Shown here piece after piece: positions 1 to 21,924 of a DNA stretch of 45,279 nucleotides. Below the pieces are notes generated by a model that was not told where the DNA came from, did not search any database, and saw nothing but the letters and a program-made list of their open reading frames with translations. The DNA is from Nemertoderma westbladi (Eukaryota > Animalia > Xenacoelomorpha). Each line of letters starts with the position of its first letter. The first letter of the stretch is position 1. The DNA lies in assembly GCA_032718475.1 (NCBI GenBank), contig JAUCBJ010007536.1:1-45279 (forward strand), written 5' to 3'. The position numbers and the translations under genes are program-made.

Positions 1-3000
1 CAGGAAGGGGTTCTTTCCACTGCAACCCTTTTTGACAAGCAGATGGGAAAATAGATTTCCATGGGGCTGTAACCGGAGCTAATATGAAAAGTGGGTCAAA
101 AACTCGGGCTACTAGCTGTAATAGGGCTTGTTTGGAAGGTATCAATTGTGAGACGTAACTATAAACTGACGAAATATTAAACGCAATTGTGTCAGTGTCT
201 AAGTGCCAAATATGGCCTAAAACTCTTGCTGTATTACCTGAGTTTGTTTCCGGTAAACTTAACGTTTCTTGTAGGTATGTTTGAGTGTTACTATTATCTG
301 CTTGTTTGACTTGTGTACTGGCTCCATACTCTTCTTTGGAAGTTAATGTTTGCTGTTCAAATTCATTGAACATCTTTTGAAGTGCTGTATGATTCGTTGT
401 CCATCTGCGCATATTAAAATGACCTCGTTCTAATATGGATGTACAAGATTTCTGTAGTTCTAATCCTTCTTTTATTGAATATACGCCAGTACACATGTCA
501 TCTACTACTTTATCGTCTAATTTTTTAATTGCTGATATGTCTGCCTTTGATGCATTGGGAATCTCTATATTAAGGTGATGTTCTAGAATTGAACTGAGTA
601 TATTAGGGGAAGGTTTTAATCCAAATAGTGCTCTAGTGTGTCTGTAAGCCTGAATATTTAAATTATTTGGGTCTACGTTATCACAATCGTTAACCCATAA
701 GAAACGCAATACATTCCTATCGTGTGCCTCTATCTGACATTGCAAGAACGCATGTTTGATATCGGCTGTGACACCTATGGGATACATTCGCCATTTGATT
801 ACTACATGTGTTAATTTCGGCATTAAGTTTGGGCCAGCCTCTAGGCAGTCATTCAATGAGTAATCCGACTTTGTGGGACGATATGAGGCGTTAAACACTA
901 CTCTCAACTTAGTACTAACGCGTTCCTCCTTTAAAACACCGCTGTGAGGAATATAGTGAACGGCGCCACCTTGTGGTGTTTTATGAAATTCCACCTTTTC
1001 TATATAACCTCTAGTAAGATGGTCTTGTATTACTTCGTTATATCTACTAAGTATGTTTAATTTTTTAAGACGTGGAATTAATCGTTTTAAGTGACTTACA
1101 CATTGTGGAAAATTGTCCTTAAGATTGTTAGGAGAGAGTTTCCATGGCAATGAGACAGTATACAAACCATCTTTCATGATTATGTTTCCTAAAACCGGTG
1201 GTTTATTATCATGAATTTCGGCATTCGGTATTCCTATACTTTCTAAGGACCAAAATGTTTGAACTAGGTTCAGTAATTCTTTATATTCTTGTTCTTGGGT
1301 GTCTACACAGTCAGTGAGAGTTGTAATAGTGGGAGTTGTATCGCCTATAGATACATTATTGCTCAACACCTCGCTATGAATGGATTCTGTTACTGATACA
1401 TTTGCTCTGCCTGAAAGTAAGTAACCAAAACTACTTTGTAAGGCTACTAAGTCAGTTTCAGCAGACCTAATTACAGTACCATGCACAAAGTTCCAGTAGT
1501 AATCACTACCAATGAGTAAGTCAACAGTAAAACCATTATTTGAGTGTACCGGTAAGTTATGAGCTAAATCCGATGTTTGTAAATTTAGAATGGTTGCCCA
1601 ATTTTTATTAGGTATATTTGTGTGAAGTGGTTCACAAATCTCTTCGACAACAACTGCTGTAATTTGACTTAGATCTCCGTTGCGATGGAGTAAATTTAAT
1701 TGAACAACATCAAGCAACTCTGGCTCCGTTTTAGATTGTTTGTCCCTGAAACGCTTAATCAACATCAATTCCTGACCTATTATTTGTAATTGATTGTATG
1801 TTGAAAAATGTTGTGTTACAAATGTACGTGTACTTCCTCCATCAAATAATGAGTTTGTATTCGCGGCTTTATTATTGCCCAGTTTACACCTTATAACAGC
1901 TGTTTGAAGTAGAATAGGCTCGGATAGTTTGCTATGTACTTCTTGAGAAGTAGTAAACAAAATGTTGCTAGTGCTTGTTGCTATGTTATCGCTTTGAGTA
2001 ATGGGTGCATTACTTTCATGAAATGCTACATTAACTTGAGATACTGATTTCGGTGTTGTGCAAATTGCAGTGTGGTGGCCAAACTTTTTACATGTGAAAC
2101 AAGGTTTACTGCGCGAGCAGTTTTGTGAAATATGGTCTTTGCCCAAACAGATAAAGCACCTTCTTAGTGCAATAAGCTGTTTTTTTCGCTCTGCCACGTC
2201 TGGTACCATATGATATGATGAGGAATAATGTGATTCTTGACAGAATATACACTTTGGGGTGTGCGATAATGTCAACGGTGTTTGTGGCCTTGTCTTTGTA
2301 ATGCTGTAATGATGTGATGTAGGTTTACTAGTGTTTACAAATGTTGCTGCTGATGGTGTAATATTGAGTTTTGGTTTATTGTTTGCTAATGTAGGTGTGC
2401 GGTTTTGTTCGTGAAGTTCTTGTATAATTTCCTCAGTGTCCAATTGTCCTTTTATTGCAGTCATGAGAACCGATAGGTCGTCTATTTCATTGTTGTGGTC
2501 GCGCAATAGTCGTTCAGTGAGTTGGCGAGGCAGTGACCGTAGTATATCTGGTATAACAATGCGTTGGTATTCCTCAGTACCTACACCTAGTGTTTTTAAA
2601 GCTCGAATGTTCTGCATACAAATGTTATATATTTGTCTAAGTGATGATGATGACCCTAATCGAGAAGTAATTGACCGCAGTTCTTCAATATGACTTCTAA
2701 TAATTTTATTTTTATTTCCGAATTGTTGTTTCAAAATATCAAGAGCTATTTCGTAATTTTCACCAGCTACAGGAAGGCCTGCCACAATTTCTTTTGCTGC
2801 ACCTGTCAAACTTTGGACCAAGTACTGAAATTTTAGCACATCCGGTAGGCCAGATTCATGCACAGCTGATAGGAAGGCATCGTGCCATCCGAAATATTTC
2901 AAAGGATTGCCGTCAAAGGAAGGTGGATGTAATTTTCCCAAAACAGAACGAGCAAAATGACTACTTGACTCATAAGGAACATTGTGAGATGTATTTGATC

Positions 3001-3406
3001 CGGCAAAAGTAGAAAATGGACTTACTGGGTGACGAGAGGTAGCCCCTACTTGTACATTATGTCCTACATTACTGCCTACTATACCTACAGTAGGAGTAAG
3101 AGAAAGTTTCAGTTCAGAAATGGCGTTACACAGTCTAACCTCGTATTCTGCGCATGGAGCTGTATCATCTTCTACATGATATTCGTTTGAGAGACCCCAT
3201 ATTTGTTCATTGAGTTCATCCAACCGTGAGTTGAACTTTTCTAACGACTTGATGCGACTATTCTTCGTTGTATCGTCGAGACTGCCAATATCACCGATTG
3301 AATTGAGGACACGTGTTGCAGCAGCTCGTACTCCTCTTCGTGATCCTACATGTTGCTTTAATTCCTGTGATAGCTGGTCTTCACCAGCAGCGTTGTTTAT
3401 TGACAT
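1..3406 (-). CDS. BEL/Pao gag-pol polyprotein, duplicate copy (5' part; runs off the window edge)
   Basis: Matches 10119-13524. Start codon is CAT at 3404-3406 on the + strand. Missing from the ORF track because there is no stop inside the window. Confidence 0.93.
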   Translation of the reverse strand, partial: MSINNAAGEDQLSQELKQHVGSRRGVRAAATRVLNSIGDIGSLDDTTKNSRIKSLEKFNSRLDELNEQIWGLSNEYHVEDDTAPCAEYEVRLCNAISELKLSLTPTVGIVGSNVGHNVQVGATSRHPVSPFSTFAGSNTSHNVPYESSSHFARSVLGKLHPPSFDGNPLKYFGWHDAFLSAVHESGLPDVLKFQYLVQSLTGAAKEIVAGLPVAGENYEIALDILKQQFGNKNKIIRSHIEELRSITSRLGSSSSLRQIYNICMQNIRALKTLGVGTEEYQRIVIPDILRSLPRQLTERLLRDHNNEIDDLSVLMTAIKGQLDTEEIIQELHEQNRTPTLANNKPKLNITPSAATFVNTSKPTSHHYSITKTRPQTPLTLSHTPKCIFCQESHYSSSYHMVPDVAERKKQLIALRRCFICLGKDHISQNCSRSKPCFTCKKFGHHTAICTTPKSVSQVNVAFHESNAPITQSDNIATSTSNILFTTSQEVHSKLSEPILLQTAVIRCKLGNNKAANTNSLFDGGSTRTFVTQHFSTYNQLQIIGQELMLIKRFRDKQSKTEPELLDVVQLNLLHRNGDLSQITAVVVEEICEPLHTNIPNKNWATILNLQTSDLAHNLPVHSNNGFTVDLLIGSDYYWNFVHGTVIRSAETDLVALQSSFGYLLSGRANVSVTESIHSEVLSNNVSIGDTTPTITTLTDCVDTQEQEYKELLNLVQTFWSLESIGIPNAEIHDNKPPVLGNIIMKDGLYTVSLPWKLSPNNLKDNFPQCVSHLKRLIPRLKKLNILSRYNEVIQDHLTRGYIEKVEFHKTPQGGAVHYIPHSGVLKEERVSTKLRVVFNASYRPTKSDYSLNDCLEAGPNLMPKLTHVVIKWRMYPIGVTADIKHAFLQCQIEAHDRNVLRFLWVNDCDNVDPNNLNIQAYRHTRALFGLKPSPNILSSILEHHLNIEIPNASKADISAIKKLDDKVVDDMCTGVYSIKEGLELQKSCTSILERGHFNMRRWTTNHTALQKMFNEFEQQTLTSKEEYGASTQVKQADNSNTQTYLQETLSLPETNSGNTARVLGHIWHLDTDTIAFNISSVYSYVSQLIPSKQALLQLVARVFDPLFILAPVTAPWKSIFPSACQKGLQWKEPLP

Positions 3407-3591
3407 GGTAACTTGATGACTGTGAATTTTAGTGGTGATGGAACATCACGTTGTTCCCAATGAATATAGTGACTGAGTTTAGTTGATTATAGTACCCATA
3501 AAGTTTGTACTTACAACGCAACGTAGTAAGCAAATGAATTCACAAAAAAGTCACAGTAAATTGAAGTTAAAGTATTATTTATCGGGCGCCA

Positions 3592-3861
3592 TATTGGATA
3601 ACGCGAAAGCGATATCCATAAATGAAAACATTTATTGATGTAAAATCAACAAGGTACAATATATTGATGTAATAATAGGTAAAGATATGTTACTCACAAT
3701 AAGTACAACAGATATAGGAGTGCGGAATGTATAATGTGTAAATCAGCTGTTAGTACATAGTGTAGATTAGTGAACTGTACTAACCAAACACATTAATTGG
3801 CAATATAAGTACTAAAGATATAATTGGCAATATAAGGTCTAATATCATATTATTCTCTACA
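3592..3861 (-). repeat. 5' LTR of the duplicated BEL/Pao copy (270 bp), with PBS at 3582-3591
   Basis: Same sequence as 13710-13979. Followed on the minus strand by TGGCGCCCGA and flanked outside by CCTAA (3862-3866). Confidence 0.93.
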
Positions 3862-4759
3862 CCTAACCACCCTCGGAAAGAAGGAAACAAAATACACGAT
3901 TGAAACAAAGATTGGACCAGTCTCGAAGAAATGGAACCAGAAGCAGATGTGGGACAACATCTGTACTTTATCGACGTTCGTGAAACAACTGGAACAAGGC
4001 CAGAAGGATGCCCGCTCGATTGCTTCACCTTGTATTTTCTTCCGATACTTCCAATTCGCGTTAGAGGAACTATGCAAGCTTGTGCTTGAGAAGATGGAAA
4101 GAAGCGCTTTAAAAGCTGGGACCGTAGACAATGTCAGTAAGATAAAGGCCATGTGCAGCTTAACCGTTGAGGATTTAAAGTTCATGGTGACTGGTGATAA
4201 TACAAAGTGGAACGAGTATATTTCTGTTCTGGCCCTTTGCGTAATTCTAAATACGCTGTTCAAAAAGACGGACCCAAACTTACTCAAGGTTATAAAGACC
4301 ATGACTCTTACCTTAGAAAACTTATTCGAAAACAAAAGTTTAAAGCTGGGAGAGGGAATAGCAGTTAAGTTTCCGAACGGGAAACTCTTAAACTTACCAC
4401 TCTGCGTCCAGGCCCTACTAAGCTGCCCAGACATGAAAGAGGAATATCAAGACATCATTGTGGATGTGGACGTTGAGCATAACAGAGTCCGGCTCAAGCC
4501 AGGCATGGTAATCGGTATGCTAAATACTGGTTCGACACTAATAACGATGATCTGCAATTTCACCGAGATATTGCGCAAGATTCAAAGTAGTGACGACTAT
4601 GTCGGACTAATATGGTCCTCTGTCAAAGAAAGCAGGTTAAAGAACGTCCCAGAAGAGGGCGTTGGAGCTCCTGAAGGCGCAGACATAGGGGATGTTGTGC
4701 CCCTTGCGGAAATCGGTGTTGATGAGAACTATAATCTAATACAGTGTGCAGTTAAATGA
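3862..4759 (+). pseudogene. PB1: Endogenous orthomyxovirus-like (Articulavirales) PB1 RdRp core fragment, copy A
   Basis: ORF 3947-4759 shows motif F-like TFVKQLEQGQKDARSIASP, motif A TGDNTKWNE, FENKSLKLGEG, motif B PGMVIGMLNTGST and motif C QSSDD. These are colinear with influenza PB1 (TMTKDAERGKLKRRAIATP, TGDNTKWNE, FSNKMARLGKG, PGMMMGMFNMLST, QSSDD). Truncated before motifs D/E. Confidence 0.95.
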
Positions 4760-5090
4760 ATTGCCAAAATGCATGAATGCCAAAAACAATGCTCTTATTT
4801 TCTCTCACAAAGATCCTGTCCATATTTCTTAAAATTTACATGTAGTATAGAATCCTGTAATGAGTGGTTCATTGATAATAAGTCACGTCCAGTAATGGTC
4901 ATAAGATAGAAAATGAAAAGGAAGTTAAATATTTAGGTGCTGCTTTGGCTAACTGAGTATCCAGAGAAAGCATGGTGAAAAATATTTTCTAGAAAGTTAA
5001 CAGTAGACTTAAGTTTATATAGTTTATTTTATTTTTATTTTATTAATTTTTATATTTTCACTGACTCTAGCAAGTTGCGAAAGTCGGTGT

Positions 5091-6020
5091 TTAACCCAGT
5101 TAAGCCCAATGACTACATTTGTAGAAACATCATTTAATGCAATGCAACATGAGTTTTCCATAATGTAGGGACTTTTTAACGTCATTGTGTTTCTTTGGAC
5201 ATGTTGGAGAAGGATTCTTAATCCAAAAATTTTATTTTTTTATTTTATCATTTATTAATTTTTTTTGTTCGAAATTTTTGTTTTTTGCCAAAATTTAGGC
5301 CCTTCTATAATGAAAAATTGTTCAAATATAAAATAGCAAAAAATATTTGTTTTGGCATAAATCATAATGATAAATATATATTTTATCATTATTTGATTTA
5401 AAGAAATATAGCAATTGGTTATTTTTCCTATTTGAAATAATGCACTTTTTGCCAATGACCATATTTGTAGTCATTGGGCAGTATATGGGATATGGCATTT
5501 ATGGAATTTATGAAATTATGTGTAATTTGCCAATCCCAAACTTTGATTCCATCATACGATCTATGAAAATTAACCCCCCCCCCACACCTAGTTTATATAT
5601 TAAAACACTAGCACACTCCCATTTGTGCTGTAAAAATTGAGTCTGTTACAGGTACAGTACAAAAGTTACCGGTATAGGTTACTGTACATAATGTTGAACT
5701 GTAAAGTTTCAGAATACTAAGTACTGAATACAGCTACGAGTCTTGCAAAATTGACTGTTTTCTCGATTTTTATAAACAGAACATGAATACATCACGCTTT
5801 TATGGGAGTGGGAAACGTATTGGTTTCATAAAAATGGCCGCTGCCATTGAGGAGGCTGTGGATCCGAGTCCTATGGAGTTAGTAGATATTGTAATGATTG
5901 GGCCGCCTATTGGAGGTAATGAATGATGGTGATAATGAAAACATCGATGATGATGATCTTTTGGTTGCAGAGGGTTTACCTGTCGAAGTTGTAGCTGAAC
6001 ACGAAGTCCATACCAATGAT
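5091..6020 (+). mobile_element. piggyBac-like left end and decayed N-terminal transposase fragment, copy A
   Basis: TTAA|CCC at 5091. 14-bp inverted repeat GCCCAATGACTACA (5104-5117) / TGTAGTCATTGGGC (5466-5479). Frameshifted peptide ...VDIVMIGPP...DNENIDDDDLL..GLPVEVVAEHEV resembles the acidic N-terminus of PGBD2/3-type transposases. Confidence 0.5.
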
Positions 6021-6303
6021 AACTATGATCAATAACAATGATTGTAAAATGATTTAATAAACTGCGACTTACCGACTTGAGCTTTTATTCCCAACAGCCG
6101 GAGTAGCCCCCCCCCCCCCCCTGTTTTTTATTTACTCTATACCAGAATTTAATGAGGTTTTAACATCTGAAAACCGCTTAGCGATACCTCATTCAGTTCT
6201 CGAGTTATCGCTGTTTTTCTGTATGATGGTCTGCCAGTCAAATTGTAGACAGACAGACAAACTAGATTCCACCAAACCTTAAAACTGACATCGGAAATGA
6301 AAT

Positions 6304-6569
6304 AACGAACTGGTTCTGTAGTTGAGACAGCCTGTCTGCCTACTTAGCTGTATACCATCGTTGACTGCCCGAATACTGAATAACTGCTCGTCTCGGTACC
6401 GGTAACCAAGGCGACCGATAACCCCCTTGGGCCTACCTTATCGTCCCTACTACAGTTGGCATTGTTTATTTCTCGCCTTCGACGGAGTCGAGTTCCCCTT
6501 TCTCTGGGCTGAGATCACCTGTTCCAAGCGTCCCCGCGAGTTAGTTGTCGTCCTCGTGGTTTGGGCCGT
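6304..6569 (+). mobile_element. 5' fragment of the CRE-clade element, cut by the duplication breakpoint
   Basis: Matches 16421-16686 except for one substitution; sequence then switches abruptly to the PB1 N-terminal block. Confidence 0.85.
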
Positions 6570-6648
6570 ATATGTATGTGCCGTACTGTTATCAAAAAAG
6601 AAAGACAGGCATCTGGCTGTTATCTTTGTTAACTTTGTTGACTTCTTC

Positions 6649-7037
6649 AATACTCGTCTAGTGTTAAACACTGTGAAGCGATCTTTGAAATACAATGGCC
6701 TTAAAAACAGCCAAGATGGATATCATAGACATACCCCCCACCGCATCGTCAATAAACTCTCGCCTCGATTTGAAGCTTGTCAGAGGAGCAGCCGTAGACT
6801 TCAGAATGCGTGAAGGGATGAAGGAACAGCTTGACGATGTATCCAAGAAGTGGATACAGTGGATGCGGACTACGAAGGCTGATGTAATGCGGCTCGGACG
6901 GATGACCTACTCTCCATTCCTCGATACAAATATACGGGCGGCTGAGGAATATTTAGAGACAGCTACCTTCTTGGCAGAGAATAGCGAGCGAGTGGCTATT
7001 GGTCCGTCGCTAATGGACCATCTTCAAGCTACCCTAA
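6649..7037 (+). pseudogene. PB1: Endogenous PB1 N-terminal fragment (left half of the EVE split by the BEL element)
   Basis: ORF 6695-7084 has TTKADVMRLGRMTYSPFLDTNIRAAEEYLETATFL...SLMDHLQATL, comparable to influenza [35 protein letters not shown]...RLIDFLKDVM. Upstream, in a shifted frame, TRLVLNTVKRSLKYN resembles TGYTMDTVNRTHQYS. It joins in frame to 13985 once the BEL element is removed. Confidence 0.85.
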
Positions 7038-7306
7038 TATTAGATAACGCGAAAGCGATATCCATAAATGAAAACATTTATTGATGTAAAATCAACAAGG
7101 TACAATATATTGATGTAATAATAGGTAAGATATGTTACTCACAATAAGTACAACAGATATAGGAGTGCGGAATGTATAATGTGTAAATCAGCTGTTAGTA
7201 CATAGTGTAGATTAGTGAACTGTACTAACCAAACACATTAATTGGCAATATAAGTACTAAAGATATAATTGGCAATATAAGGTCTAATATCATATTATTC
7301 TCTACA
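7038..7306 (-). repeat. 3' LTR (269 bp)
   Basis: Direct repeat of 13710-13979 with one substitution (TATTAG vs TATTGG) and one 1-bp indel (GGTAAGAT vs GGTAAAGAT). Begins TGTAGAG on the minus strand. Confidence 0.95.
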
Positions 7307-7320
7307 CCGCCCCCTTGCTT
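7307..7320 (-). promoter_or_regulatory. Polypurine tract
   Basis: Minus strand AAGCAAGGGGGCGG lies immediately upstream of the 3' LTR. Confidence 0.8.
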
Positions 7321-7698
7321 TGTATAAAAAGCAACACACATACTGTACTACCATAAATAATAGAAATGGGGCAATGGGCCACGGTTGCTTCTGACAATAT
7401 GGGTAACAATAAAAAACAATAAAGATGTAAATAGTAAATAATACAGAACACAGCAATACGCGATATGTATTTTGTATTATAATATCGCTCATAAATTTGC
7501 AACCACCACCATTGCAATGCTGTTTATAATTAATTGAGTTTATAATAAATTAATCATACAAATCTAACACCGTATAAGCACGCTACGGTGTTAATAACGA
7601 GTTATGTGAATACAAGAAATACAATTTATATATACTACTGTACCTACTGTATATTAACCAACGTCACCCATGCCAAGACAAGATTCGGGTTGTTTGAG

Positions 7699-10600
7699 TT
7701 AAGTTTTGTAAAAACCAAGTATTTTGTTTTGTTTGGCGTTGCGGGGATGTTTTGATTGCAGAGTAGACTCAATTTTTTGTTTTACACTTGAATCAGTTCT
7801 TGGTTTAATCTTGTCCATGCTAATGGTTATATTTTCTAGTCCTGTTGGGTTTGGTGGAACTTCCAACGGGATTAAATGTTTAATAGAGCGAGTCAAATAT
7901 GTAGCCTCTTTGCCTCTTTTTGCTATTTTAATTCGTACTGAACGAATTTCACCATCTCTGCTTTCGAATAATTTGTCGACCCTGCAGATTTTCCACAAAC
8001 AACGGGGTAATTTTTTGTCACACAATAAGCAAATGTCGCCTATGGCGGGTTTGATCAAATTCAATTCAGACCGATTATTGGTGCGGTGGCTTTCGCGTAA
8101 CTCTTTTAAGTAGTGGTCACGCCAAAATTGCCAAAAGCAATTAGCCGCAATCTCTTGATATTTTTTTCTGTTTTTGAGGGTTTTTGCGGTTATTTCTAAA
8201 TTTTGGGATTTGACAAACGGGTGGGGTAATGCACAGAGCCTCTTCCCAACCAGGAAGTGACTTGGAGTAAGGACATCAAAACACTCTGTGTCGTCAGTAT
8301 GTATATAAGTCAGCGGCCTACTATTTACAACTCCTTCACAAGTTACAAGTAAGGTTGCAAATTCCTCATCTGTTAGTACAGCCCGTCCCATTACTTTACG
8401 TAGGTTGGATTTTACACTGACAACCAGCCCTTCTATGAAGCCATACGCAGATGGATACCTCTCAACATTGAACTTCCATTCAATTGATAAATTTCCGAAT
8501 GCGTGTTTAACTGCTTCACTATTTAATACTTTATTGTATAACACTAATTCTTGGGATGTTTTTTTAAATGTACTGGCATTGTCACTTAATATCAGTGATG
8601 GTATACCCCTACGGCTTATAAAACGTTGCAATGCTGATATAAATGACGTCACATGTAAACTTGGGACAAGTTCTAAGTGGATCGCCCTGGTTACTGCACA
8701 CGTCATTAGGGCGACATAAACTTTGGTGATACTACCTTGTGGGTCACTAAGTGTCCGTGTTACGTTTAGAGGACCGCAGAAATCGATTCCTACATTGGTA
8801 AATGGGGATGATTCTTCGGTTAATCGTTCTATTGGTAGTGGACTAATGTCAGGTGATTTATATGGCTTACCCTGTATTACTTTGCAACTAATACAGTTTC
8901 GTAGCACACGTTTGATGACTTGGCGACCACGAGGTAACCAATAGTTTTCCCTTAGCTGTGCGAGTGTGGCTCTAACGCGACCATGCATAACCTGTTCGTG
9001 GGCAGTGCGAATTATTAATACTGTATAGTGGTCATTTGCTGGAAGTAATATTGGATTTTGAGAATACCAAGATAGAAGTGGCGTCTTCGCCCTGCCCTTT
9101 GAACGAATAATCCCGCCACTATCGATGAACAAATTCAATTGATTTACTAACTTTGGGCACTTACCTTTTCCTTGTGTTAAATATTGGATGATAGGCATGT
9201 AATGTTGTGATTGTATATGTTTTATTAATAACATTTCTGAGGTTTGAATTTCCTTGGTTGTGACTGTATTATCTAGTATAAGTGCGTTACTTGTGCCTTT
9301 ACCTATTTTGGCTTTCACATTAGCAATGAATCTTAACACCCATCCCAATATACGAAGTGGTTGAAGTTTTGAACTATATTTCGTATAATCAATAACATTA
9401 GATATAGAACAGTTTTGTTGAGAAATTACAGTTGTGGTTTGTGTGATTATTAATGGGGCGTGTTTTACTTCTTTCAAACACTCGTTGGAAATTTCAGTGG
9501 TAATGGGACACTCTGGCCAGCTTTCCTCTCCACCAGAAAGAAGAAATTTCGGACCATGGAACCACAATTCCGAATTAATCAGTTTTTTTGTGCTGATTCC
9601 TCTTGTAGGAATATCAGCCGGATTATCATGACCTGGGCAATAGCGCCATCTAGCGTTCATTTTTTCTGTCAACACGTTTATACTTTGGACTATATTCTGT
9701 ACAAACTGTTTATATTGTTTATTGCCATGTAGCCAATACAGTACGTCGTGAGCATCAGTCCAAAGATAGACAGTGGAATCCTGTAACTGAAGCTCACTCA
9801 TGACATCATACGCTAAATATGAAAGTATATACGTTCCAAGCAGTTCCAGCTTGGGAGTGGAGGGCGGTTTATTACTTGCCTTTGATTGCGGGGTTACTTT
9901 AGTTCTACTTGTTACTAATGAAACACTGTAACTGTTATCTGTATATATCGCCCTAATATATATAACTGCTGCATACAGACGATCACTGGCGTCTGAGAAG
10001 CCATGTAATTCTACTTGATGAACTTGTTTATGAGTATCAAAGTAGTATCTTGGAATTGAAACTTGATCGAGAGTTCGTAAGTTGTCTAAACATCTGTGCC
10101 ATAATGTTAATAAATCGTCAGGAAGGGGTTCTTTCCACTGCAACCCTTTTTGACAAGCAGATGGGAAAATAGATTTCCATGGGGCTGTAACCGGAGCTAA
10201 TATGAAAAGTGGGTCAAAAACTCGGGCTACTAGCTGTAATAGGGCTTGTTTGGAAGGTATCAATTGTGAGACGTAACTATAAACTGACGAAATATTAAAC
10301 GCAATTGTGTCAGTGTCTAAGTGCCAAATATGGCCTAAAACTCTTGCTGTATTACCTGAGTTTGTTTCCGGTAAACTTAACGTTTCTTGTAGGTATGTTT
10401 GAGTGTTACTATTATCTGCTTGTTTGACTTGTGTACTGGCTCCATACTCTTCTTTGGAAGTTAATGTTTGCTGTTCAAATTCATTGAACATCTTTTGAAG
10501 TGCTGTATGATTCGTTGTCCATCTGCGCATATTAAAATGACCTCGTTCTAATATGGATGTACAAGATTTCTGTAGTTCTAATCCTTCTTTTATTGAATAT

Positions 10601-13524
10601 ACGCCAGTACACATGTCATCTACTACTTTATCGTCTAATTTTTTAATTGCTGATATGTCTGCCTTTGATGCATTGGGAATCTCTATATTAAGGTGATGTT
10701 CTAGAATTGAACTGAGTATATTAGGGGAAGGTTTTAATCCAAATAGTGCTCTAGTGTGTCTGTAAGCCTGAATATTTAAATTATTTGGGTCTACGTTATC
10801 ACAATCGTTAACCCATAAGAAACGCAATACATTCCTATCGTGTGCCTCTATCTGACATTGCAAGAACGCATGTTTGATATCGGCTGTGACACCTATGGGA
10901 TACATTCGCCATTTGATTACTACATGTGTTAATTTCGGCATTAAGTTTGGGCCAGCCTCTAGGCAGTCATTCAATGAGTAATCCGACTTTGTGGGACGAT
11001 ATGAGGCGTTAAACACTACTCTCAACTTAGTACTAACGCGTTCCTCCTTTAAAACACCGCTGTGAGGAATATAGTGAACGGCGCCACCTTGTGGTGTTTT
11101 ATGAAATTCCACCTTTTCTATATAACCTCTAGTAAGATGGTCTTGTATTACTTCGTTATATCTACTAAGTATGTTTAATTTTTTAAGACGTGGAATTAAT
11201 CGTTTTAAGTGACTTACACATTGTGGAAAATTGTCCTTAAGATTGTTAGGAGAGAGTTTCCATGGCAATGAGACAGTATACAAACCATCTTTCATGATTA
11301 TGTTTCCTAAAACCGGTGGTTTATTATCATGAATTTCGGCATTCGGTATTCCTATACTTTCTAAGGACCAAAATGTTTGAACTAGGTTCAGTAATTCTTT
11401 ATATTCTTGTTCTTGGGTGTCTACACAGTCAGTGAGAGTTGTAATAGTGGGAGTTGTATCGCCTATAGATACATTATTGCTCAACACCTCGCTATGAATG
11501 GATTCTGTTACTGATACATTTGCTCTGCCTGAAAGTAAGTAACCAAAACTACTTTGTAAGGCTACTAAGTCAGTTTCAGCAGACCTAATTACAGTACCAT
11601 GCACAAAGTTCCAGTAGTAATCACTACCAATGAGTAAGTCAACAGTAAAACCATTATTTGAGTGTACCGGTAAGTTATGAGCTAAATCCGATGTTTGTAA
11701 ATTTAGAATGGTTGCCCAATTTTTATTAGGTATATTTGTGTGAAGTGGTTCACAAATCTCTTCGACAACAACTGCTGTAATTTGACTTAGATCTCCGTTG
11801 CGATGGAGTAAATTTAATTGAACAACATCAAGCAACTCTGGCTCCGTTTTAGATTGTTTGTCCCTGAAACGCTTAATCAACATCAATTCCTGACCTATTA
11901 TTTGTAATTGATTGTATGTTGAAAAATGTTGTGTTACAAATGTACGTGTACTTCCTCCATCAAATAATGAGTTTGTATTCGCGGCTTTATTATTGCCCAG
12001 TTTACACCTTATAACAGCTGTTTGAAGTAGAATAGGCTCGGATAGTTTGCTATGTACTTCTTGAGAAGTAGTAAACAAAATGTTGCTAGTGCTTGTTGCT
12101 ATGTTATCGCTTTGAGTAATGGGTGCATTACTTTCATGAAATGCTACATTAACTTGAGATACTGATTTCGGTGTTGTGCAAATTGCAGTGTGGTGGCCAA
12201 ACTTTTTACATGTGAAACAAGGTTTACTGCGCGAGCAGTTTTGTGAAATATGGTCTTTGCCCAAACAGATAAAGCACCTTCTTAGTGCAATAAGCTGTTT
12301 TTTTCGCTCTGCCACGTCTGGTACCATATGATATGATGAGGAATAATGTGATTCTTGACAGAATATACACTTTGGGGTGTGCGATAATGTCAACGGTGTT
12401 TGTGGCCTTGTCTTTGTAATGCTGTAATGATGTGATGTAGGTTTACTAGTGTTTACAAATGTTGCTGCTGATGGTGTAATATTGAGTTTTGGTTTATTGT
12501 TTGCTAATGTAGGTGTGCGGTTTTGTTCGTGAAGTTCTTGTATAATTTCCTCAGTGTCCAATTGTCCTTTTATTGCAGTCATGAGAACCGATAGGTCGTC
12601 TATTTCATTGTTGTGGTCGCGCAATAGTCGTTCAGTGAGTTGGCGAGGCAGTGACCGTAGTATATCTGGTATAACAATGCGTTGGTATTCCTCAGTACCT
12701 ACACCTAGTGTTTTTAAAGCTCGAATGTTCTGCATACAAATGTTATATATTTGTCTAAGTGATGATGATGACCCTAATCGAGAAGTAATTGACCGCAGTT
12801 CTTCAATATGACTTCTAATAATTTTATTTTTATTTCCGAATTGTTGTTTCAAAATATCAAGAGCTATTTCGTAATTTTCACCAGCTACAGGAAGGCCTGC
12901 CACAATTTCTTTTGCTGCACCTGTCAAACTTTGGACCAAGTACTGAAATTTTAGCACATCCGGTAGGCCAGATTCATGCACAGCTGATAGGAAGGCATCG
13001 TGCCATCCGAAATATTTCAAAGGATTGCCGTCAAAGGAAGGTGGATGTAATTTTCCCAAAACAGAACGAGCAAAATGACTACTTGACTCATAAGGAACAT
13101 TGTGAGATGTATTTGATCCGGCAAAAGTAGAAAATGGACTTACTGGGTGACGAGAGGTAGCCCCTACTTGTACATTATGTCCTACATTACTGCCTACTAT
13201 ACCTACAGTAGGAGTAAGAGAAAGTTTCAGTTCAGAAATGGCGTTACACAGTCTAACCTCGTATTCTGCGCATGGAGCTGTATCATCTTCTACATGATAT
13301 TCGTTTGAGAGACCCCATATTTGTTCATTGAGTTCATCCAACCGTGAGTTGAACTTTTCTAACGACTTGATGCGACTATTCTTCGTTGTATCGTCGAGAC
13401 TGCCAATATCACCGATTGAATTGAGGACACGTGTTGCAGCAGCTCGTACTCCTCTTCGTGATCCTACATGTTGCTTTAATTCCTGTGATAGCTGGTCTTC
13501 ACCAGCAGCGTTGTTTATTGACAT
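7699..13524 (-). CDS. BEL/Pao gag-pol polyprotein (gag, Zn knuckles, protease, RT, RNase H, integrase), 1941 aa
   Basis: Gag PSFDGNPLKYFGW; knuckles CFICLGKDHISQNC and CFTCKKFGHHTAIC; protease LFDGGSTRTFV; RT ADIKHAFLQ...VVDD; RNase H LHGFSDAS, WTDA, NPADIPTRG; integrase HHCC, GIDFCGP, SDNASTF; C-terminal FWQFWRDHYLKEL. Order PR-RT-RH-IN with BEL signatures. Confidence 0.97.
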   Translation of the reverse strand: MSINNAAGEDQLSQELKQHVGSRRGVRAAATRVLNSIGDIGSLDDTTKNSRIKSLEKFNSRLDELNEQIWGLSNEYHVEDDTAPCAEYEVRLCNAISELKLSLTPTVGIVGSNVGHNVQVGATSRHPVSPFSTFAGSNTSHNVPYESSSHFARSVLGKLHPPSFDGNPLKYFGWHDAFLSAVHESGLPDVLKFQYLVQSLTGAAKEIVAGLPVAGENYEIALDILKQQFGNKNKIIRSHIEELRSITSRLGSSSSLRQIYNICMQNIRALKTLGVGTEEYQRIVIPDILRSLPRQLTERLLRDHNNEIDDLSVLMTAIKGQLDTEEIIQELHEQNRTPTLANNKPKLNITPSAATFVNTSKPTSHHYSITKTRPQTPLTLSHTPKCIFCQESHYSSSYHMVPDVAERKKQLIALRRCFICLGKDHISQNCSRSKPCFTCKKFGHHTAICTTPKSVSQVNVAFHESNAPITQSDNIATSTSNILFTTSQEVHSKLSEPILLQTAVIRCKLGNNKAANTNSLFDGGSTRTFVTQHFSTYNQLQIIGQELMLIKRFRDKQSKTEPELLDVVQLNLLHRNGDLSQITAVVVEEICEPLHTNIPNKNWATILNLQTSDLAHNLPVHSNNGFTVDLLIGSDYYWNFVHGTVIRSAETDLVALQSSFGYLLSGRANVSVTESIHSEVLSNNVSIGDTTPTITTLTDCVDTQEQEYKELLNLVQTFWSLESIGIPNAEIHDNKPPVLGNIIMKDGLYTVSLPWKLSPNNLKDNFPQCVSHLKRLIPRLKKLNILSRYNEVIQDHLTRGYIEKVEFHKTPQGGAVHYIPHSGVLKEERVSTKLRVVFNASYRPTKSDYSLNDCLEAGPNLMPKLTHVVIKWRMYPIGVTADIKHAFLQCQIEAHDRNVLRFLWVNDCDNVDPNNLNIQAYRHTRALFGLKPSPNILSSILEHHLNIEIPNASKADISAIKKLDDKVVDDMCTGVYSIKEGLELQKSCTSILERGHFNMRRWTTNHTALQKMFNEFEQQTLTSKEEYGASTQVKQADNSNTQTYLQETLSLPETNSGNTARVLGHIWHLDTDTIAFNISSVYSYVSQLIPSKQALLQLVARVFDPLFILAPVTAPWKSIFPSACQKGLQWKEPLPDDLLTLWHRCLDNLRTLDQVSIPRYYFDTHKQVHQVELHGFSDASDRLYAAVIYIRAIYTDNSYSVSLVTSRTKVTPQSKASNKPPSTPKLELLGTYILSYLAYDVMSELQLQDSTVYLWTDAHDVLYWLHGNKQYKQFVQNIVQSINVLTEKMNARWRYCPGHDNPADIPTRGISTKKLINSELWFHGPKFLLSGGEESWPECPITTEISNECLKEVKHAPLIITQTTTVISQQNCSISNVIDYTKYSSKLQPLRILGWVLRFIANVKAKIGKGTSNALILDNTVTTKEIQTSEMLLIKHIQSQHYMPIIQYLTQGKGKCPKLVNQLNLFIDSGGIIRSKGRAKTPLLSWYSQNPILLPANDHYTVLIIRTAHEQVMHGRVRATLAQLRENYWLPRGRQVIKRVLRNCISCKVIQGKPYKSPDISPLPIERLTEESSPFTNVGIDFCGPLNVTRTLSDPQGSITKVYVALMTCAVTRAIHLELVPSLHVTSFISALQRFISRRGIPSLILSDNASTFKKTSQELVLYNKVLNSEAVKHAFGNLSIEWKFNVERYPSAYGFIEGLVVSVKSNLRKVMGRAVLTDEEFATLLVTCEGVVNSRPLTYIHTDDTECFDVLTPSHFLVGKRLCALPHPFVKSQNLEITAKTLKNRKKYQEIAANCFWQFWRDHYLKELRESHRTNNRSELNLIKPAIGDICLLCDKKLPRCLWKICRVDKLFESRDGEIRSVRIKIAKRGKEATYLTRSIKHLIPLEVPPNPTGLENITISMDKIKPRTDSSVKQKIESTLQSKHPRNAKQNKILGFYKT

Positions 13525-13699
13525 GGTAACTTGATGACTGTGAATTTTAGTGGTGATGGAACATCACGTTGTTCCCAATGAATATAGTGACTGAGTTTAG
13601 TTGATTATAGTACCCATAAAGTTTGTACTTACAACGCAACGTAGTAAGCAAATGAATTCACAAAAAAGTCACAGTAAATTGAAGTTAAAGTATTATTTA

Positions 13700-13709
13700 T
13701 CGGGCGCCA
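13700..13709 (-). promoter_or_regulatory. Primer-binding site, tRNA-Lys(UUU)-like
   Basis: TGGCGCCCGA directly follows the 5' LTR on the minus strand and matches the first 10 nt of the standard tRNA-Lys3 PBS. Confidence 0.75.
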
Positions 13710-13979
13710 TATTGGATAACGCGAAAGCGATATCCATAAATGAAAACATTTATTGATGTAAAATCAACAAGGTACAATATATTGATGTAATAATAGGTAA
13801 AGATATGTTACTCACAATAAGTACAACAGATATAGGAGTGCGGAATGTATAATGTGTAAATCAGCTGTTAGTACATAGTGTAGATTAGTGAACTGTACTA
13901 ACCAAACACATTAATTGGCAATATAAGTACTAAAGATATAATTGGCAATATAAGGTCTAATATCATATTATTCTCTACA
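13710..13979 (-). repeat. 5' LTR (270 bp)
   Basis: Direct repeat of 7038-7306, bounded by the PBS and the TSD. Confidence 0.95.
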
Positions 13980-14877
13980 CCTAACCACCCTCGGAAAGAA
14001 GGAAACAAAATACACGATTGAAACAAAGATTGGACCAGTCTCGAAGAAATGGAACCAGAAGCAGATGTGGGACAACATCTGTACTTTATCGACGTTCGTG
14101 AAACAACTGGAACAAGGCCAGAAGGATGCCCGCTCGATTGCTTCACCTTGTATTTTCTTCCGATACTTCCAATTCGCGTTAGAGGAACTATGCAAGCTTG
14201 TGCTTGAGAAGATGGAAAGAAGCGCTTTAAAAGCTGGGACCGTAGACAATGTCAGTAAGATAAAGGCCATGTGCAGCTTAACCGTTGAGGATTTAAAGTT
14301 CATGGTGACTGGTGATAATACAAAGTGGAACGAGTATATTTCTGTTCTGGCCCTTTGCGTAATTCTAAATACGCTGTTCAAAAAGACGGACCCAAACTTA
14401 CTCAAGGTTATAAAGACCATGACTCTTACCTTAGAAAACTTATTCGAAAACAAAAGTTTAAAGCTGGGAGAGGGAATAGCAGTTAAGTTTCCGAACGGGA
14501 AACTCTTAAACTTACCACTCTGCGTCCAGGCCCTACTAAGCTGCCCAGACATGAAAGAGGAATATCAAGACATCATTGTGGATGTGGACGTTGAGCATAA
14601 CAGAGTCCGGCTCAAGCCAGGCATGGTAATCGGTATGCTAAATACTGGTTCGACACTAATAACGATGATCTGCAATTTCACCGAGATATTGCGCAAGATT
14701 CAAAGTAGTGACGACTATGTCGGACTAATATGGTCCTCTGTCAAAGAAAGCAGGTTAAAGAACGTCCCAGAAGAGGGCGTTGGAGCTCCTGAAGGCGCAG
14801 ACATAGGGGATGTTGTGCCCCTTGCGGAAATCGGTGTTGATGAGAACTATAATCTAATACAGTGTGCAGTTAAATGA
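13980..14877 (+). pseudogene. PB1: Endogenous orthomyxovirus-like PB1 RdRp core fragment, copy B
   Basis: Same protein as 3947-4759 (motifs F, A, B, C). The reading frame is open back to the TSD (TTLGKKETKYTIETKIGPVSKKWNQKQMWD...). Confidence 0.95.
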
Positions 14878-15208
14878 ATTGCCAAAATGCATGAATGCCA
14901 AAAACAATGCTCTTATTTTCTCTCACAAAGATCCTGTCCATATTTCTTAAAATTTACATGTAGTATAGAATCCTGTAATGAGTGGTTCATTGATAATAAG
15001 TCACGTCCAGTAATGGTCATAAGATAGAAAATGAAAAGGAAGTTAAATATTTAGGTGCTGCTTTGGCTAACTGAGTATCCAGAGAAAGCATGGTGAAAAA
15101 TATTTTCTAGAAAGTTAACAGTAGACTTAAGTTTATATAGTTTATTTTATTTTTATTTTATTAATTTTTATATTTTCACTGACTCTAGCAAGTTGCGAAA
15201 GTCGGTGT

Positions 15209-16138
15209 TTAACCCAGTTAAGCCCAATGACTACATTTGTAGAAACATCATTTAATGCAATGCAACATGAGTTTTCCATAATGTAGGGACTTTTTAACGT
15301 CATTGTGTTTCTTTGGACATGTTGGAGAAGGATTCTTAATCCAAAAATTTTATTTTTTTATTTTATCATTTATTAATTTTTTTTGTTCGAAATTTTTGTT
15401 TTTTGCCAAAATTTAGGCCCTTCTATAATGAAAAATTGTTCAAATATAAAATAGCAAAAAATATTTGTTTTGGCATAAATCATAATGATAAATATATATT
15501 TTATCATTATTTGATTTAAAGAAATATAGCAATTGGTTATTTTTCCTATTTGAAATAATGCACTTTTTGCCAATGACCATATTTGTAGTCATTGGGCAGT
15601 ATATGGGATATGGCATTTATGGAATTTATGAAATTATGTGTAATTTGCCAATCCCAAACTTTGATTCCATCATACGATCTATGAAAATTAACCCCCCCCC
15701 CACACCTAGTTTATATATTAAAACACTAGCACACTCCCATTTGTGCTGTAAAAATTGAGTCTGTTACAGGTACAGTACAAAAGTTACCGGTATAGGTTAC
15801 TGTACATAATGTTGAACTGTAAAGTTTCAGAATACTAAGTACTGAATACAGCTACGAGTCTTGCAAAATTGACTGTTTTCTCGATTTTTATAAACAGAAC
15901 ATGAATACATCACGCTTTTATGGGAGTGGGAAACGTATTGGTTTCATAAAAATGGCCGCTGCCATTGAGGAGGCTGTGGATCCGAGTCCTATGGAGTTAG
16001 TAGATATTGTAATGATTGGGCCGCCTATTGGAGGTAATGAATGATGGTGATAATGAAAACATCGATGATGATGATCTTTTGGTTGCAGAGGGTTTACCTG
16101 TCGAAGTTGTAGCTGAACACGAAGTCCATACCAATGAT
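15209..16138 (+). mobile_element. piggyBac-like left end and decayed N-terminal transposase fragment, copy B
   Basis: Duplicate of 5091-6020: TTAA|CCC at 15209, inverted repeat 15222-15235/15584-15597. Same strand as the catalytic-core relic at ~22720-23020. Confidence 0.5.
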
Positions 16139-16899
16139 AACTATGATCAATAACAATGATTGTAAAATGATTTAATAAACTGCGACTTACCGACTTGAGC
16201 TTTTATTCCCAACAGCCGGAGTAGCCCCCCCCCCCCCCTGTTTTTTATTTACTCTATACCAGAATTTAATGAGGTTTTAACATCTGAAAACCGCTTAGCG
16301 ATACCTCATTCAGTTCTCGAGTTATCGCTGTTTTTCTGTATGATGGTCTGCCAGTCAAATTGTAGACAGACAGACAAACTAGATTCCACCAAACCTTAAA
16401 ACTGACATCGGAAATGAAATAACGAACTGGTTCTGTAGTTGAGACAGCCTGTCTGCCTACTTAGCTGTATACCATCGTTGACTGCCCGAATACTGAATAA
16501 CTGCTCGTCTCGGTACCGGTAACCAAGGCGACCGATAACCCCCTTGGGCCTACCTTATCGTCCCTACTACAGTCGGCATTGTTTATTTCTCGCCTTCGAC
16601 GGAGTCGAGTTCCCCTTTCTCTGGGCTGAGATCACCTGTTCCAAGCGTCCCCGCGAGTTAGTTGTCGTCCTCGTGGTTTGGGCCGTTCTCCCATCGTGTG
16701 GTTTTCTGCTAGCAATTTCATCCCGAACCGAGTTCAGGTGCGCAGACAACTTACTGGACCGGGAGCCGTATTCCCCCACGTCCACACCTACCAGGGAAAG
16801 TTTCACATGCAAGCTTTTTCTTCTTTGAACCTTTTTCTAAACTACGCAGGTGAGGAATATTTGTTCTGTTCACTTAGCTGTCTCACTCACCTCACTGAT

Positions 16900-17071
16900 T
16901 TAATTACCCGTTCATATAACTGTTTCATCCCATCTCATTGTGTTAATTACCTGTTCATATAGCTGTTTCATCAAATCTCATTGTGTTAATTACCTGTTCA
17001 TATAACTGTTTCATCCCATCTCATTGTGTTAATTACCTGTTCATATAACTGTTTCATCCCATCTCATCGTT
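16900..17071. repeat. 43-bp minisatellite x4 in the CRE 5' region
   Basis: TTAATTACCTGTTCATATAACTGTTTCATCCCATCTCATTGTG units start at 16900, 16943, 16986 and 17029. Confidence 0.95.
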
Positions 17072-17740
17072 TAAATTATCGCCCACCATTACGTTTATAT
17101 GGTTTTTTACTTTTATTTATAGCTCATCATTTAATAATAATAATATTATATTATTTTATTATATTATCTACATTTAATAATACGGATTATCACTTCTGTT
17201 CATCTCATAACTTATCAATCATTGGTCGGAGCCGTCATTAGGCCCTATTTCTCATTAGCAATAGAGCCCCACATTACATTTTTGTTATTAATTCATGTGT
17301 TTTCTGTGTTGGATTCTATTCCGCTTTAAGTTCCACTTATTCACTCATATCTGTTTCATTTATGCTTTCATTCATGTCCCTTATTTCTCTTTTCACTTAC
17401 AACCTTTAGACTGCAACCATTTACCCCTTTATTGCACCCTTTATTGGTTTAATTATCCACGATTTATGAACCTACCTTTACTGTACTCTGTGCTGTTTTC
17501 AGTTTTTGCCATAGTTTATTGTTACTTTTAATTAAGTCAATTGAGTCCATAGTTTGCCTGTCAGTTACTGTTCAGTTACTTTCTGTAACTGAGATCTGTT
17601 CTGCCCGTGGTCCTTTCCAATCCCTGCATACTTTTTACCCTAATCATTCCCTCTGCATAAACCCCCCCCCCCCCCAAGCTACTTACTAGCTGCCACCCAA
17701 ACCACCTTACAAACCTCAGAACTCACATCCTTCTCACGGG

Positions 17741-20700: not shown

Positions 20701-21830
20701 GATGCGACCGCACAGTTTGATTCCGTCATTCATGCTGCTCTGTCCGACCTCATAGGGGGCTCTCTTTCCAGCTGGTCGGCCAATAAGGCTGTTCTCCCAA
20801 CCTCCATGGGAGGTGTTGGTCTTCGTAGAGCAGCTGATCATGCCCCTGCGGCATACATTGCATCCGTCTGCCAATGCAAGGCATTGGTCTCCCAAATCCT
20901 GCATCATGCCCCTTTCAACCCTCACATTACCCCCACCCTGTCCTCCCTGGCGCAGGCTGCTAAAGAACCTGACTGGTCTACCCTCGAAGCTCTACCTTCC
21001 CCTGTTACTCAACGCCAACTCTCTCACTCCATCGATCTGGCCTTGTTTGATGACCTAATCTCTAATGCCCCTGACCACAGGTCTAAGGCGCTTGCCAACT
21101 CCTCCTCCCTGCCACATGCAGGAGATTGGCTACATACAATCCCTTCAGAAAGCCTAGGGCTACATTTCCTTGACGCTGAGTATCGCCACTCAATTTGCTA
21201 TTGGCTTGGCATCCGTATGAGCTCCTCCACCTACCCTTGTCCCGTATGCTCTTCCCCAGCAGACCCGTATGGGGATCATCAGGTCAGCTGCGGTGGAGAT
21301 GGGGACAGGATTGCTCGTCATGACTCTCTTCGAGGCGCAATTTTCTTAGCTGCACAATCTGCTGCTCTTGCGCCTCGAAGTGAAGTCCCCGGCCTCATTC
21401 CTGGGTCTCGCAGTCGTCCAGCCAATATTTTTCTCCCCAACTGGCATCGCAGTCAGCCAATGGCCTTGGATGTCACGGTCATCTCCCCCCTGCAGGCCTT
21501 AACCCTCAACGGTGCTGCCACAGACCCTGGCTATGCCCAATCCATAGCCAGAAATCGAAAGCTAGCAGCCCACGCAGATGAGTGCAGGAGCTCCGGCGTC
21601 GGTTTTACATTACACCCTTGGTCGTTGAGGCACTAGGCGGTTGGGATCCCCACTCTTCCTCTACCATTCGGGAAATTGCCAGACTCCAGGGCCTGAGACG
21701 TGGTACACCCACTGGTGACTCAATCCGACACCTTTTCCAGAGGCTATCCGTTATCCTGTGGCGTGGGAACTCCTCCATGTGGCTGCGCAGATCCCCAACC
21801 TTCCCCCCCTCAGTAGATGGTGTGCTTTAG
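17741..21830 (+). pseudogene. CRE-clade polyprotein: Ulp1-like (C48) protease - SAP - RT - CCHC finger - restriction-like endonuclease; frameshifted
   Basis: Ulp1 motifs GWLTDNIL, FNSQF, ILFPIN, HWSL, FLDS and QHNSYNCGVYV are spread over frames 17741, 17892 and 18106. SAP LKVSDLKLQLKSRGLPTTGKKEVLKARL. RT LRPIAVGETLRR, DFSNAFN, GVQQGDPLGP, WYLDD. Finger CPVC...DHQVSC...RHD. RLE RPAN..LDVTV. A last frameshift near 21605 leads into PLVVEALGGW... Confidence 0.9.
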
Positions 21831-21924
21831 AGGCCTCACAGACAATACAGACCTTACAACCTTGTTTTTAGCCTATTGTAGTGTATTGTCTCAAACCGAT
21901 TTGTACTGTACAGAATAGTAACGT

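What the first reader, a model, noticed from the sequence alone, without database searches (positions are those of the whole stretch)
1..16686. EVE + BEL block amplified as a ~10.1-kb tandem unit
The unit 6570-16686 starts only ~80 bp before the recognisable PB1 sequence. It carries the whole split EVE, the BEL element, a piggyBac end and the first 266 bp of the CRE element. The copies are nearly identical, and more may lie left of the window. The junction places the CRE 5' end, a possible internal promoter, directly upstream of the PB1 N-terminus (chimeric ORF 6427-6813). Amplified viral sequence inside a TE graveyard is what a piRNA-type antiviral memory locus would look like; that part is inference.
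Basis: partly seen in the sequence, partly recalled or inferred. Interest (0 to 1): 0.7.

Follow-up and report, generated by a model that had tools for sequence, protein, structure and literature searches.

The report
Duplicated flu-like virus fossil among transposons
A broken piece of the polymerase gene of an unknown flu-like RNA virus sits in this animal's DNA in two nearly identical head-to-tail copies, likely made by a recent repair accident rather than an assembly error, and an antiviral role for it is untested.

Summary
The repeat is as described: 1-6569 equals 10119-16686 with two differences; unit 10,117 bp. The junction is very likely real DNA: a 55-nt contig crosses 6569/6570 without mismatch in 2 of 3 runs (two studies), though with only 30+25 letters a side, under the tool's bridging rule. 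The runs also show the original left flank and reveal a 5-bp microhomology (GCCGT). Rough depth gives about 1.6-2.3 copies per EVE-bearing haplotype: a duplication, not a large amplification. The EVE is a truncated PB1 (Pfam E 4e-28), nearest Xinjiang sediment and Wenling orthomyxo-like viruses (35-37%), outside influenza, thogoto and quaranja clades. It starts directly after a 63-bp LINE-RT-like piece. The BEL insertion is not fixed: one run holds the empty site, so the first duplicated unit may have been 3.17 kb. The 'chimeric ORF' has no ATG and only about 28 PB1 codons; a CRE promoter would give sense RNA. No RNA run was available, so the piRNA idea is untested. Duplicated EVEs are common in arthropods; the host here may be a sponge (weak evidence), which would be the new part.

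The parts
1..6569 (.). Left copy of the tandem unit, cut by the window start (begins inside BEL)
   Evidence: 99.97% to 10119-16686; two differences
6570..16686 (.). Complete tandem unit, 10,117 bp
6565..6569 (+). 5-bp microhomology GCCGT at the duplication junction, shared by the CRE-side breakpoint (16682-16686) and the original left flank
   Evidence: loose ends before 6565 (X1, X2) and behind 6569 (X1-X3); chance of 5 or more bp about 0.006
6588..6650 (+). Piece of a very high-copy repeat reading as LINE reverse transcriptase (RTE-like label recalled), directly abutting the viral sequence
   Evidence: summed contig depth up to 7e5-1e6 against 25-200 on PB1; run loose ends continue it with ALRRIIE before and FKAFDS after (read by eye); no Pfam hit for 23 aa
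6651..7037 (+). PB1 EVE, 5' part (about codons 33-170 of full-length relatives), frame break within about 6716-6740
   Evidence: 6652-6738 aligns to aa 33-60 of P0233/P0234/P0237, 0 of 300 shuffles as good; 6716-6991 to P0234 aa 61-149, E 2e-7; Flu_PB1 E 1e-3, below cut-off
7038..13979 (-). BEL/Pao LTR retrotransposon, 1954-aa open frame 7699-13563, LTRs 269/270 bp differing by 1 substitution and 1 indel, 5-bp TSD 7033-7037 and 13980-13984
   Evidence: Pfam Peptidase_A17, DUF1759, DUF5641, Integrase_H2C2
13985..14877 (+). PB1 EVE, core part with polymerase motifs GDNTKWNE, PGMVIGM and SSDD; ends shortly after motif C
   Evidence: Flu_PB1 E 4e-28, 98.4 bits against cut-off 26.4; PDB influenza PB1 E 7e-18; 37% to P0233; no PB1 match found further right in 14 of 15 comparisons
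14897..15135 (+). Degraded high-copy repeat that reads like the C-terminal half of a CR1/Crack-type RT (label recalled, not confirmed)
   Evidence: depth 4e3-4e4 in the matching bins 4526-5181; motifs seen; no RT hit in Pfam or against the window's own LINE
15209..16130 (+). piggyBac-like left end (TTAA|CCC) and N-terminal remnant
   Evidence: 14-nt inverted pair 15222-15235/15584-15597; transposase remnant outside the unit at 22702-23022, DDE_Tnp_1_7 E 9e-4
16421..22214 (+). CRE-like non-LTR element (Ulp1-like, SAP, RT); its first 266 bp lie in the unit
6406..6813 (+). Junction-made open frame without ATG: CRE 5' sequence, host DNA, LINE-RT motif and PB1 codons ~33-60
   Evidence: no Pfam hit

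Best explanation
A truncated, frame-broken PB1 gene piece of an unclassified orthomyxo-like virus lies in transposon-dense animal DNA in two near-identical head-to-tail copies, likely produced by a recent microhomology-guided repair or replication slip and likely carried along as a passenger rather than amplified for defence. Inferred order: (1) viral RNA was reverse-transcribed, likely by a LINE enzyme, and integrated joined to LINE-RT sequence; (2) it lost both ends and gained a frame break; (3) a BEL element inserted into it on some chromosomes only; (4) a strand at the CRE 5' end (16682-16686) switched to the same five bases GCCGT just left of the EVE and re-copied the block. Whether (3) came before (4) is open: X1 holds the junction and the BEL-free site, so the junction may first have duplicated a 3.17-kb unit, with the two BEL-bearing copies of this window arising later by unequal exchange. 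Shown: anatomy, identity, junction and empty-site contigs, microhomology. Inferred: the repair pathway, the LINE role, the order, neutrality.
For: Junction contig 6540-6594, no mismatch, in X1 (depth 56.6) and X2 (25.4), two samples and studies; all 25 of its 31-mers occur once in the window. Same 22-letter left flank in X1 and X2, right flank in X1-X3. Microhomology 5 bp, p about 0.006. Depth bins deconvolve exactly (check 470.1 vs 470, 157.8 vs 157.8): left flank 98 and 20, junction 57 and 25. Virus-host joins are bridged in DNA runs: X1 record 6606-6716, X2 record 3876-5120 with 0 differences. Empty-site joint 7037->3870 in X1, depth 194.5. Copies differ by 1 substitution in 6568 bp, LTRs by 1 in 270. 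Duplication of EVEs is common: 126 of 276 in Aedes aegypti have a copy at 98% or more (PMC6580184, passages).
Against: Contig depth is, by the tool's own note, no copy number. No run listed a BEL-PB1 junction (0 of 4, tables cut), so two BEL-bearing copies in tandem are seen only in this assembly; the copy-specific T at 6457 is not shown in any run. Passenger status is a default, not a result: no expression or population data. The LINE labels of both flanks failed to get a Pfam or BLAST hit.
Confidence: 0.66

Rival explanations
1. The locus is a piRNA-type antiviral memory: the EVE lies in a piRNA cluster and extra copies raise the output of small RNAs against a circulating virus. The likelier antisense driver would be the BEL 3' LTR (minus strand, pointing into the PB1 5' part) or cluster-wide transcription, not the CRE end.
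For: Window is nearly all transposon debris. EVEs in ticks and mosquitoes favour piRNA clusters (PMC6580184 passages); a whelk EVE gives antisense 5'U small RNAs (PMC6085071 passages). Core ORF of 297 codons keeps its motifs. Junction seen in two studies.
Against: Elements lie on both strands (21.5 kb minus, 10.2 kb plus among those tallied). No cognate virus closer than 37% over the long core match was found. Copy number about two. The CRE end would give sense RNA. PMC6085071 found no distinct antiviral small RNAs for RNA viruses in its sponge, anemone or earthworm samples.
Confidence: 0.17
2. The junction is real, but the assembly over-copied the block: the individual has one BEL-bearing and one BEL-free copy (or two haplotypes), and the assembler wrote the BEL-bearing unit twice.
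For: Copies are practically identical and the one substitution is not shown in runs. X1 passes through the empty site at full PB1 depth; X2 and X3 contigs stop exactly at 7037, the pattern of a fork at the insertion site.
Against: Graph cleaning removes low-depth links next to a high-depth LTR (own knowledge of de Bruijn cleaning), so missing BEL-PB1 junctions prove nothing; a filled double or triple haplotype plus an empty single haplotype fits the left-flank and junction depths as well.
Confidence: 0.13
3. The whole repeat is an assembly artefact and the junction does not exist in DNA.
For: Near-perfect identity; window begins inside the repeat; bridging rule not formally met.
Against: Identical 55-nt junction contig at depth 25-57 in two samples of two studies, with the matching left-flank branch.
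Confidence: 0.04

Closest known systems
Orthomyxo-like NIRVS/nrEVEs of Ixodes scapularis and Aedes mosquitoes (PMC6580184, PMC10956553; passages read)
   Same: Fragment of a segmented negative-strand virus gene in transposon-rich DNA, frameshifted, duplicated after insertion, near non-LTR elements.
   Different: Virus lineage is not quaranja-like; PB1 EVEs are the minority in mosquitoes (6 PB1 against 180 NP, PMC10956553); host seems not to be an arthropod (weak); here the duplication junction and both parental flanks are resolved; piRNA output unknown.
Xinjiang sediment orthomyxo-like virus 1 (UMO75720.1) and Wenling orthomyxo-like virus 1 (AVM87616.1) PB1
   Same: Best 2 of 31 hits among 1.84 billion representatives; clade with the EVE at 92/86 and 100/98 after pruning.
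   Different: Only 35-37% identical; long-branch warning in both trees; these are exogenous full-length proteins of 752-760 aa.
Microhomology-mediated tandem duplication (MMBIR/FoSTeS or alternative end joining; recalled)
   Same: Head-to-tail copy of about 3-10 kb, 5-bp microhomology, no inserted bases, breakpoints in unrelated sequence.
   Different: No pathway test possible; later unequal exchange may have reshaped the array.
Retroelement-virus chimeric cDNA (LTR-guided vDNA in Aedes, PMC6797480, listing and abstract start only; L1-made bornavirus elements, recalled)
   Same: Viral sequence joined without spacer to retroelement RT sequence in the same sense.
   Different: Here the partner is a 63-bp internal LINE-like piece; no poly(A) tail or TSD of the EVE was found, so integration into existing LINE debris is equally possible.

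Membership tests
Articulavirales PB1 | Flu_PB1 profile above curated cut-off | tested here: met
   98.4 bits against 26.4, E 4e-28
Articulavirales PB1 | Palm motifs KWNE and (S)SDD (PMC10636315 passages) | tested here: met
   GDNTKWNE and QSSDDY in the core piece; the GINMS-type motif after it is not found
Named genera (influenza, thogoto, quaranja) | PB1 nests inside the genus clade | tested here: not met
   Falls outside the influenza, Hubei orthoptera virus 6 (thogoto-like, recalled) and insect quaranja-like groups in both trees
Proposed 'Metamyxovirus' or 'Cnidenomoviridae' (PMC10636315) | Clade membership with the paper's reference sequences | not tested
   Reference set not fetched; that Wenling orthomyxo-like virus 1 is the paper's lizardfish virus is recalled, not checked
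Non-retroviral EVE | Present in host DNA, joined to host sequence | tested here: met
   3 DNA-type runs hold it; both virus-host joins lie inside contigs
Non-retroviral EVE | Partial gene with disablements | tested here: met
   codons 1-32 and the last ~40% missing, frame break, BEL insertion
BEL/Pao | Gag-PR-RT-RH-IN in one frame with Peptidase_A17, DUF1759, DUF5641; LTRs; 5-bp TSD | tested here: met
BEL/Pao | TG...CA LTR ends (recalled as usual) | tested here: not met
   Both LTRs read TG...TA on the element's strand
Microhomology-mediated tandem duplication | Novel head-to-tail junction in DNA with short homology to both parental flanks | tested here: met
   formal 31-letter bridging rule not reached
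piRNA cluster / antiviral EVE | 24-31 nt 1U small RNAs map to the locus | not testable with these tools
   no small-RNA data could be laid
piRNA cluster / antiviral EVE | Uniform antisense orientation of inserts (uni-strand clusters) | tested here: inconclusive
   both strands used, about 2:1; dual-strand clusters are not excluded
piRNA cluster / antiviral EVE | Close match to a circulating virus | tested here: inconclusive
   best long match 37% protein identity; host's viruses are probably unsampled
CRE clade non-LTR element | RT clade placement and REL endonuclease | not tested
   RT, SAP and Ulp1-like domains found; no tree with named CRE references

The most novel reading that the evidence does not exclude
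The host is a sponge or another non-bilaterian, this is a genomic record of an Articulavirales lineage in that phylum, the LINE-RT/PB1 fusion is the footprint of a template switch that made the EVE, and the locus segregates in empty, BEL-filled and duplicated states that change antisense piRNA output against a still circulating virus: heritable antiviral memory caught in the act of dosage change in an early-branching animal.
Probability: 0.08. Interest if true: 0.8.

Novelty: new member of a known kind. Interest (0 to 1): 0.4.

Why it matters
The EVE shows that a little-sampled orthomyxo-like lineage, known from a sediment sample and one other metagenomic virus record, infected the germ line of this animal, which gives the lineage a true host once the organism is named. 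If that host is a sponge, the papers found here list none among Articulavirales hosts. The locus also has several natural alleles (empty, BEL-filled, single, duplicated), so whether EVE dosage or an adjacent LTR changes small-RNA output can be tested directly. Without such data it is a well-resolved but ordinary duplication in transposon debris.

Tried and rejected
No whole genome is held, so the upstream contig could not be read. No RNA holder listed: no evidence either way on expression. X5 (same species label, third study) shows no cover on PB1 and only scraps of BEL: not counted as absence. Word-based protein searches found no PB1 relative (0 of 2613 and 0 of 1031 candidates); viral and metagenome contig scans none (0 of 21, 0 of 127 stretches). 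Atlas gave only generic RdRp clusters and nothing for ORF 27558-27998. Rfam and ARAGORN: nothing. The sigma-70 scan does not apply to an animal. LINE identity of both EVE flanks was not confirmed by BLAST or Pfam. Codon positions of 26 listed run-versus-window differences in the BEL frame (6, 8, 12; p 0.21; 60 table rows not shown) do not separate neutral decay from subfamily divergence. My interim reading that the chimeric frame holds no PB1 was wrong and was corrected. One of 15 tail comparisons reached p 0.005 (P0237) but out of order and with a stop; rejected. Host naming through cluster members gave 1 name in 10 clusters. Earlier findings: none. PMC11521997 has no 'orthomyxo' or 'PB1' in its main text.
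Full report
Observation. Self-comparison gives one long direct repeat, 1-6569 against 10119-16686, 99.97% identical, with a C-run indel at 6121 and a T/C difference at 6457/16574. The unit is 6570-16686, 10,117 bp. The window has no N and GC of 28-56% per kb; its long frames are retroelements: two BEL/Pao, a gypsy, a CRE-like and a CR1-like element. No genome is held for it.

Anatomy of the unit. After 18 bp of host DNA comes a piece (6588-6650) of a repeat with summed contig depth of 7e5-1e6 against 25-200 on PB1. The loose ends of the runs continue it with ALRRIIE before and FKAFDS after, which I read by eye as a LINE reverse-transcriptase motif (RTE-like; recalled, and no Pfam hit for the 23 residues). 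Viral sequence starts directly after it: 6652-6738 aligns to codons 33-60 of three full-length PB1 proteins, with 0 of 300 shuffles as good, and from about 6716 another frame aligns to codons 61-149 of P0234 (E 2e-7). A BEL element with 269/270-bp LTRs (1 substitution, 1 indel) and TSD CCTAA fills 7038-13979. The PB1 core follows at 13985-14877 (Flu_PB1 E 4e-28; influenza PB1 structures E 7e-18) and stops shortly after SSDD. Then come another high-copy repeat that reads like a CR1/Crack RT end (recalled; unconfirmed), a piggyBac-type end at 15209 whose transposase remnant lies outside the unit (E 9e-4), and the first 266 bp of the CRE-like element, whose limits are fixed by a 9-bp TSD.

Is the junction real? 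Three DNA-type runs of two studies hold the locus; all are Logan contigs, and one may be the source sample. A 55-nt contig 6540-6594 crosses the junction without mismatch in X1 (depth 56.6) and X2 (25.4); X3 does not show it. It is however the shape expected of a unitig between two forks, and both forks are seen: the right flank (equal to window 16687 onward) as a loose end behind 6569 in 3 of 3 runs, and the same 22-letter left flank before 6565 in 2 of 3. The forks overlap by five bases, GCCGT, which chance gives with p about 0.006. An artefact of this one assembly would not recur in two samples, so I take the junction as real.

How many copies? The depth bins resolve exactly into left flank 98 and junction 57 in X1, and 20 and 25 in X2: about 1.6 and 2.3 copies per EVE-bearing haplotype. 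The tool warns that contig depth is no copy number, so this is rough, but it speaks for two or three copies, not an array.

BEL is not fixed. X1 has a joint 7037->3870 that passes the insertion site without the element, at depth 194.5, as high as PB1 itself (145-197); in X2 and X3 the PB1 5' contig ends exactly at 7037, which suggests a fork; no run lists a BEL-PB1 junction (0 of 4; pieces and loose ends were cut in the output). Two histories fit. Either the junction first duplicated a BEL-free unit of 3170 bp and the BEL-bearing copy was later doubled by unequal exchange, or BEL came first and an empty single-copy haplotype segregates beside filled duplicated ones, with the filled links lost in graph cleaning. 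The high depth of the empty-site contig slightly favours the first (my estimate 55:45). A partial over-copying by the assembler is not excluded.

The virus. HMMER over 1.84 billion representatives gave 31 hits; the best two are Xinjiang sediment orthomyxo-like virus 1 (37%) and Wenling orthomyxo-like virus 1 (35%). A tree of 26 rows (25 of the 31 hits; six short or partial matches left out) groups the EVE with them, P0249 and two unnamed proteins from long ENA contigs at 92/86; with 8 more rows removed, among them the longest branches, the trio has 100/98. Both trees carry long-branch warnings. It is outside the influenza, thogoto-like and quaranja-like groups.

The host. Unknown. Among 120 listed relatives of the CRE protein only one carries an organism name, Amphimedon queenslandica, at 49% and rank 87, while the best unnamed ones reach 55%. 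This points weakly to a sponge or another marine invertebrate (my odds for sponge about 40%).

The frame 6406-6813 is made by the junction and does hold PB1 codons ~33-60, but it has no ATG, leaves the PB1 frame at the break and has no Pfam hit. CRE and PB1 are on the same strand, so an internal CRE promoter would give mRNA-sense RNA. Antisense RNA would more likely come from the BEL 3' LTR, which points into the 5' part (inference). Elements of the window lie on both strands. No small-RNA test was possible.

Comparison with print. Post-insertion duplication of EVEs is common: 126 of 276 in Aedes aegypti, 18% in Ixodes, where orthomyxo-like EVEs and nearby non-LTR elements are enriched (PMC6580184, passages). 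PB1 EVEs exist in mosquitoes (PMC10956553, passages). Articulavirales are known from cnidarians, ctenophores, acoels, molluscs and others; PMC10636315 screened Porifera transcriptomes and the host lists in the passages I read name no sponge, and PMC12277240 has no 'sponge' or 'Porifera' in its main text. Searches for a sponge or non-arthropod orthomyxo EVE and for hemizygous tandem EVEs (0 papers) found no such report; the library lacks most subscription papers and I read no supplements, where host tables may say otherwise. PMC6085071 (passages), PMC12548735 (one passage), PMC11521997 (term search only), PMC6797480 and PMC6211395 (listings only) were also seen.

Verdict. Observation confirmed; junction very likely real and microhomology-made; copy number low; BEL polymorphic; defence role untested. 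A new member of a known kind, of moderate interest for the virus lineage, the possible host and the testable allelic series.

Noticed in passing
window 7038-7306, 13710-13979: Both BEL LTRs end TG...TA on the element's strand instead of the usual TG...CA; the run contigs show the same LTR start next to the primer site, so it is likely a family trait.
   Followed up: partly
window 7699-13563: The BEL copy differs from the runs' majority contigs at about 33-35 sites and its RT catalytic-motif region reads atypically, although the frame is open.
   Followed up: partly
window 15209-23022: Nested stack: piggyBac remnant, interrupted by a high-copy repeat with (GACA)n-like tracts, itself interrupted by the CRE-like element with a 9-bp TSD.
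   Followed up: yes
window 17690-21830: CRE-like element carries an N-terminal Ulp1-like protease and a SAP domain, with frame breaks near 18095 and 21630, a 43-bp x4 repeat in its 5' region and a (GTATT)n tail; 208 relatives at E<=1e-30, mostly unnamed.
   Followed up: partly
window 5128-5920 (and 15245-16037): Runs hold a second, diverged version of the piggyBac remnant at about 1:3 (X1) and 1:1 (X2, X3) depth: a paralogue or an EVE-free haplotype.
   Followed up: no
window 3994 to 5872: A joint skipping 1877 bp is listed in X1 (depth 73.7) and X3 (12.4) with only 30 letters on one side; the X1 contig 3949-5120 runs unbroken over it, so it may be spurious.
   Followed up: no
P0235, P0236: Two unnamed PB1-like proteins lie on ENA contigs of 25-172 kb and pair at 100/99 near the EVE in the tree: likely EVEs of the same virus group in other genomes.
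   Followed up: partly
window 32141-43839: A second BEL element appears to be split by a CR1-like element with its own ORF1 (37623-38552) and PHD-like start; a 112-bp direct repeat lies at 38753-39020.
   Followed up: no
window 27558-27998: 146-codon open frame with no Pfam or Atlas match.
   Followed up: partly
window 14750-14877: About 45 open codons after SSDD, acidic, without match to the PB1 relatives tested: a virus-specific insert or non-viral filler.
   Followed up: partly
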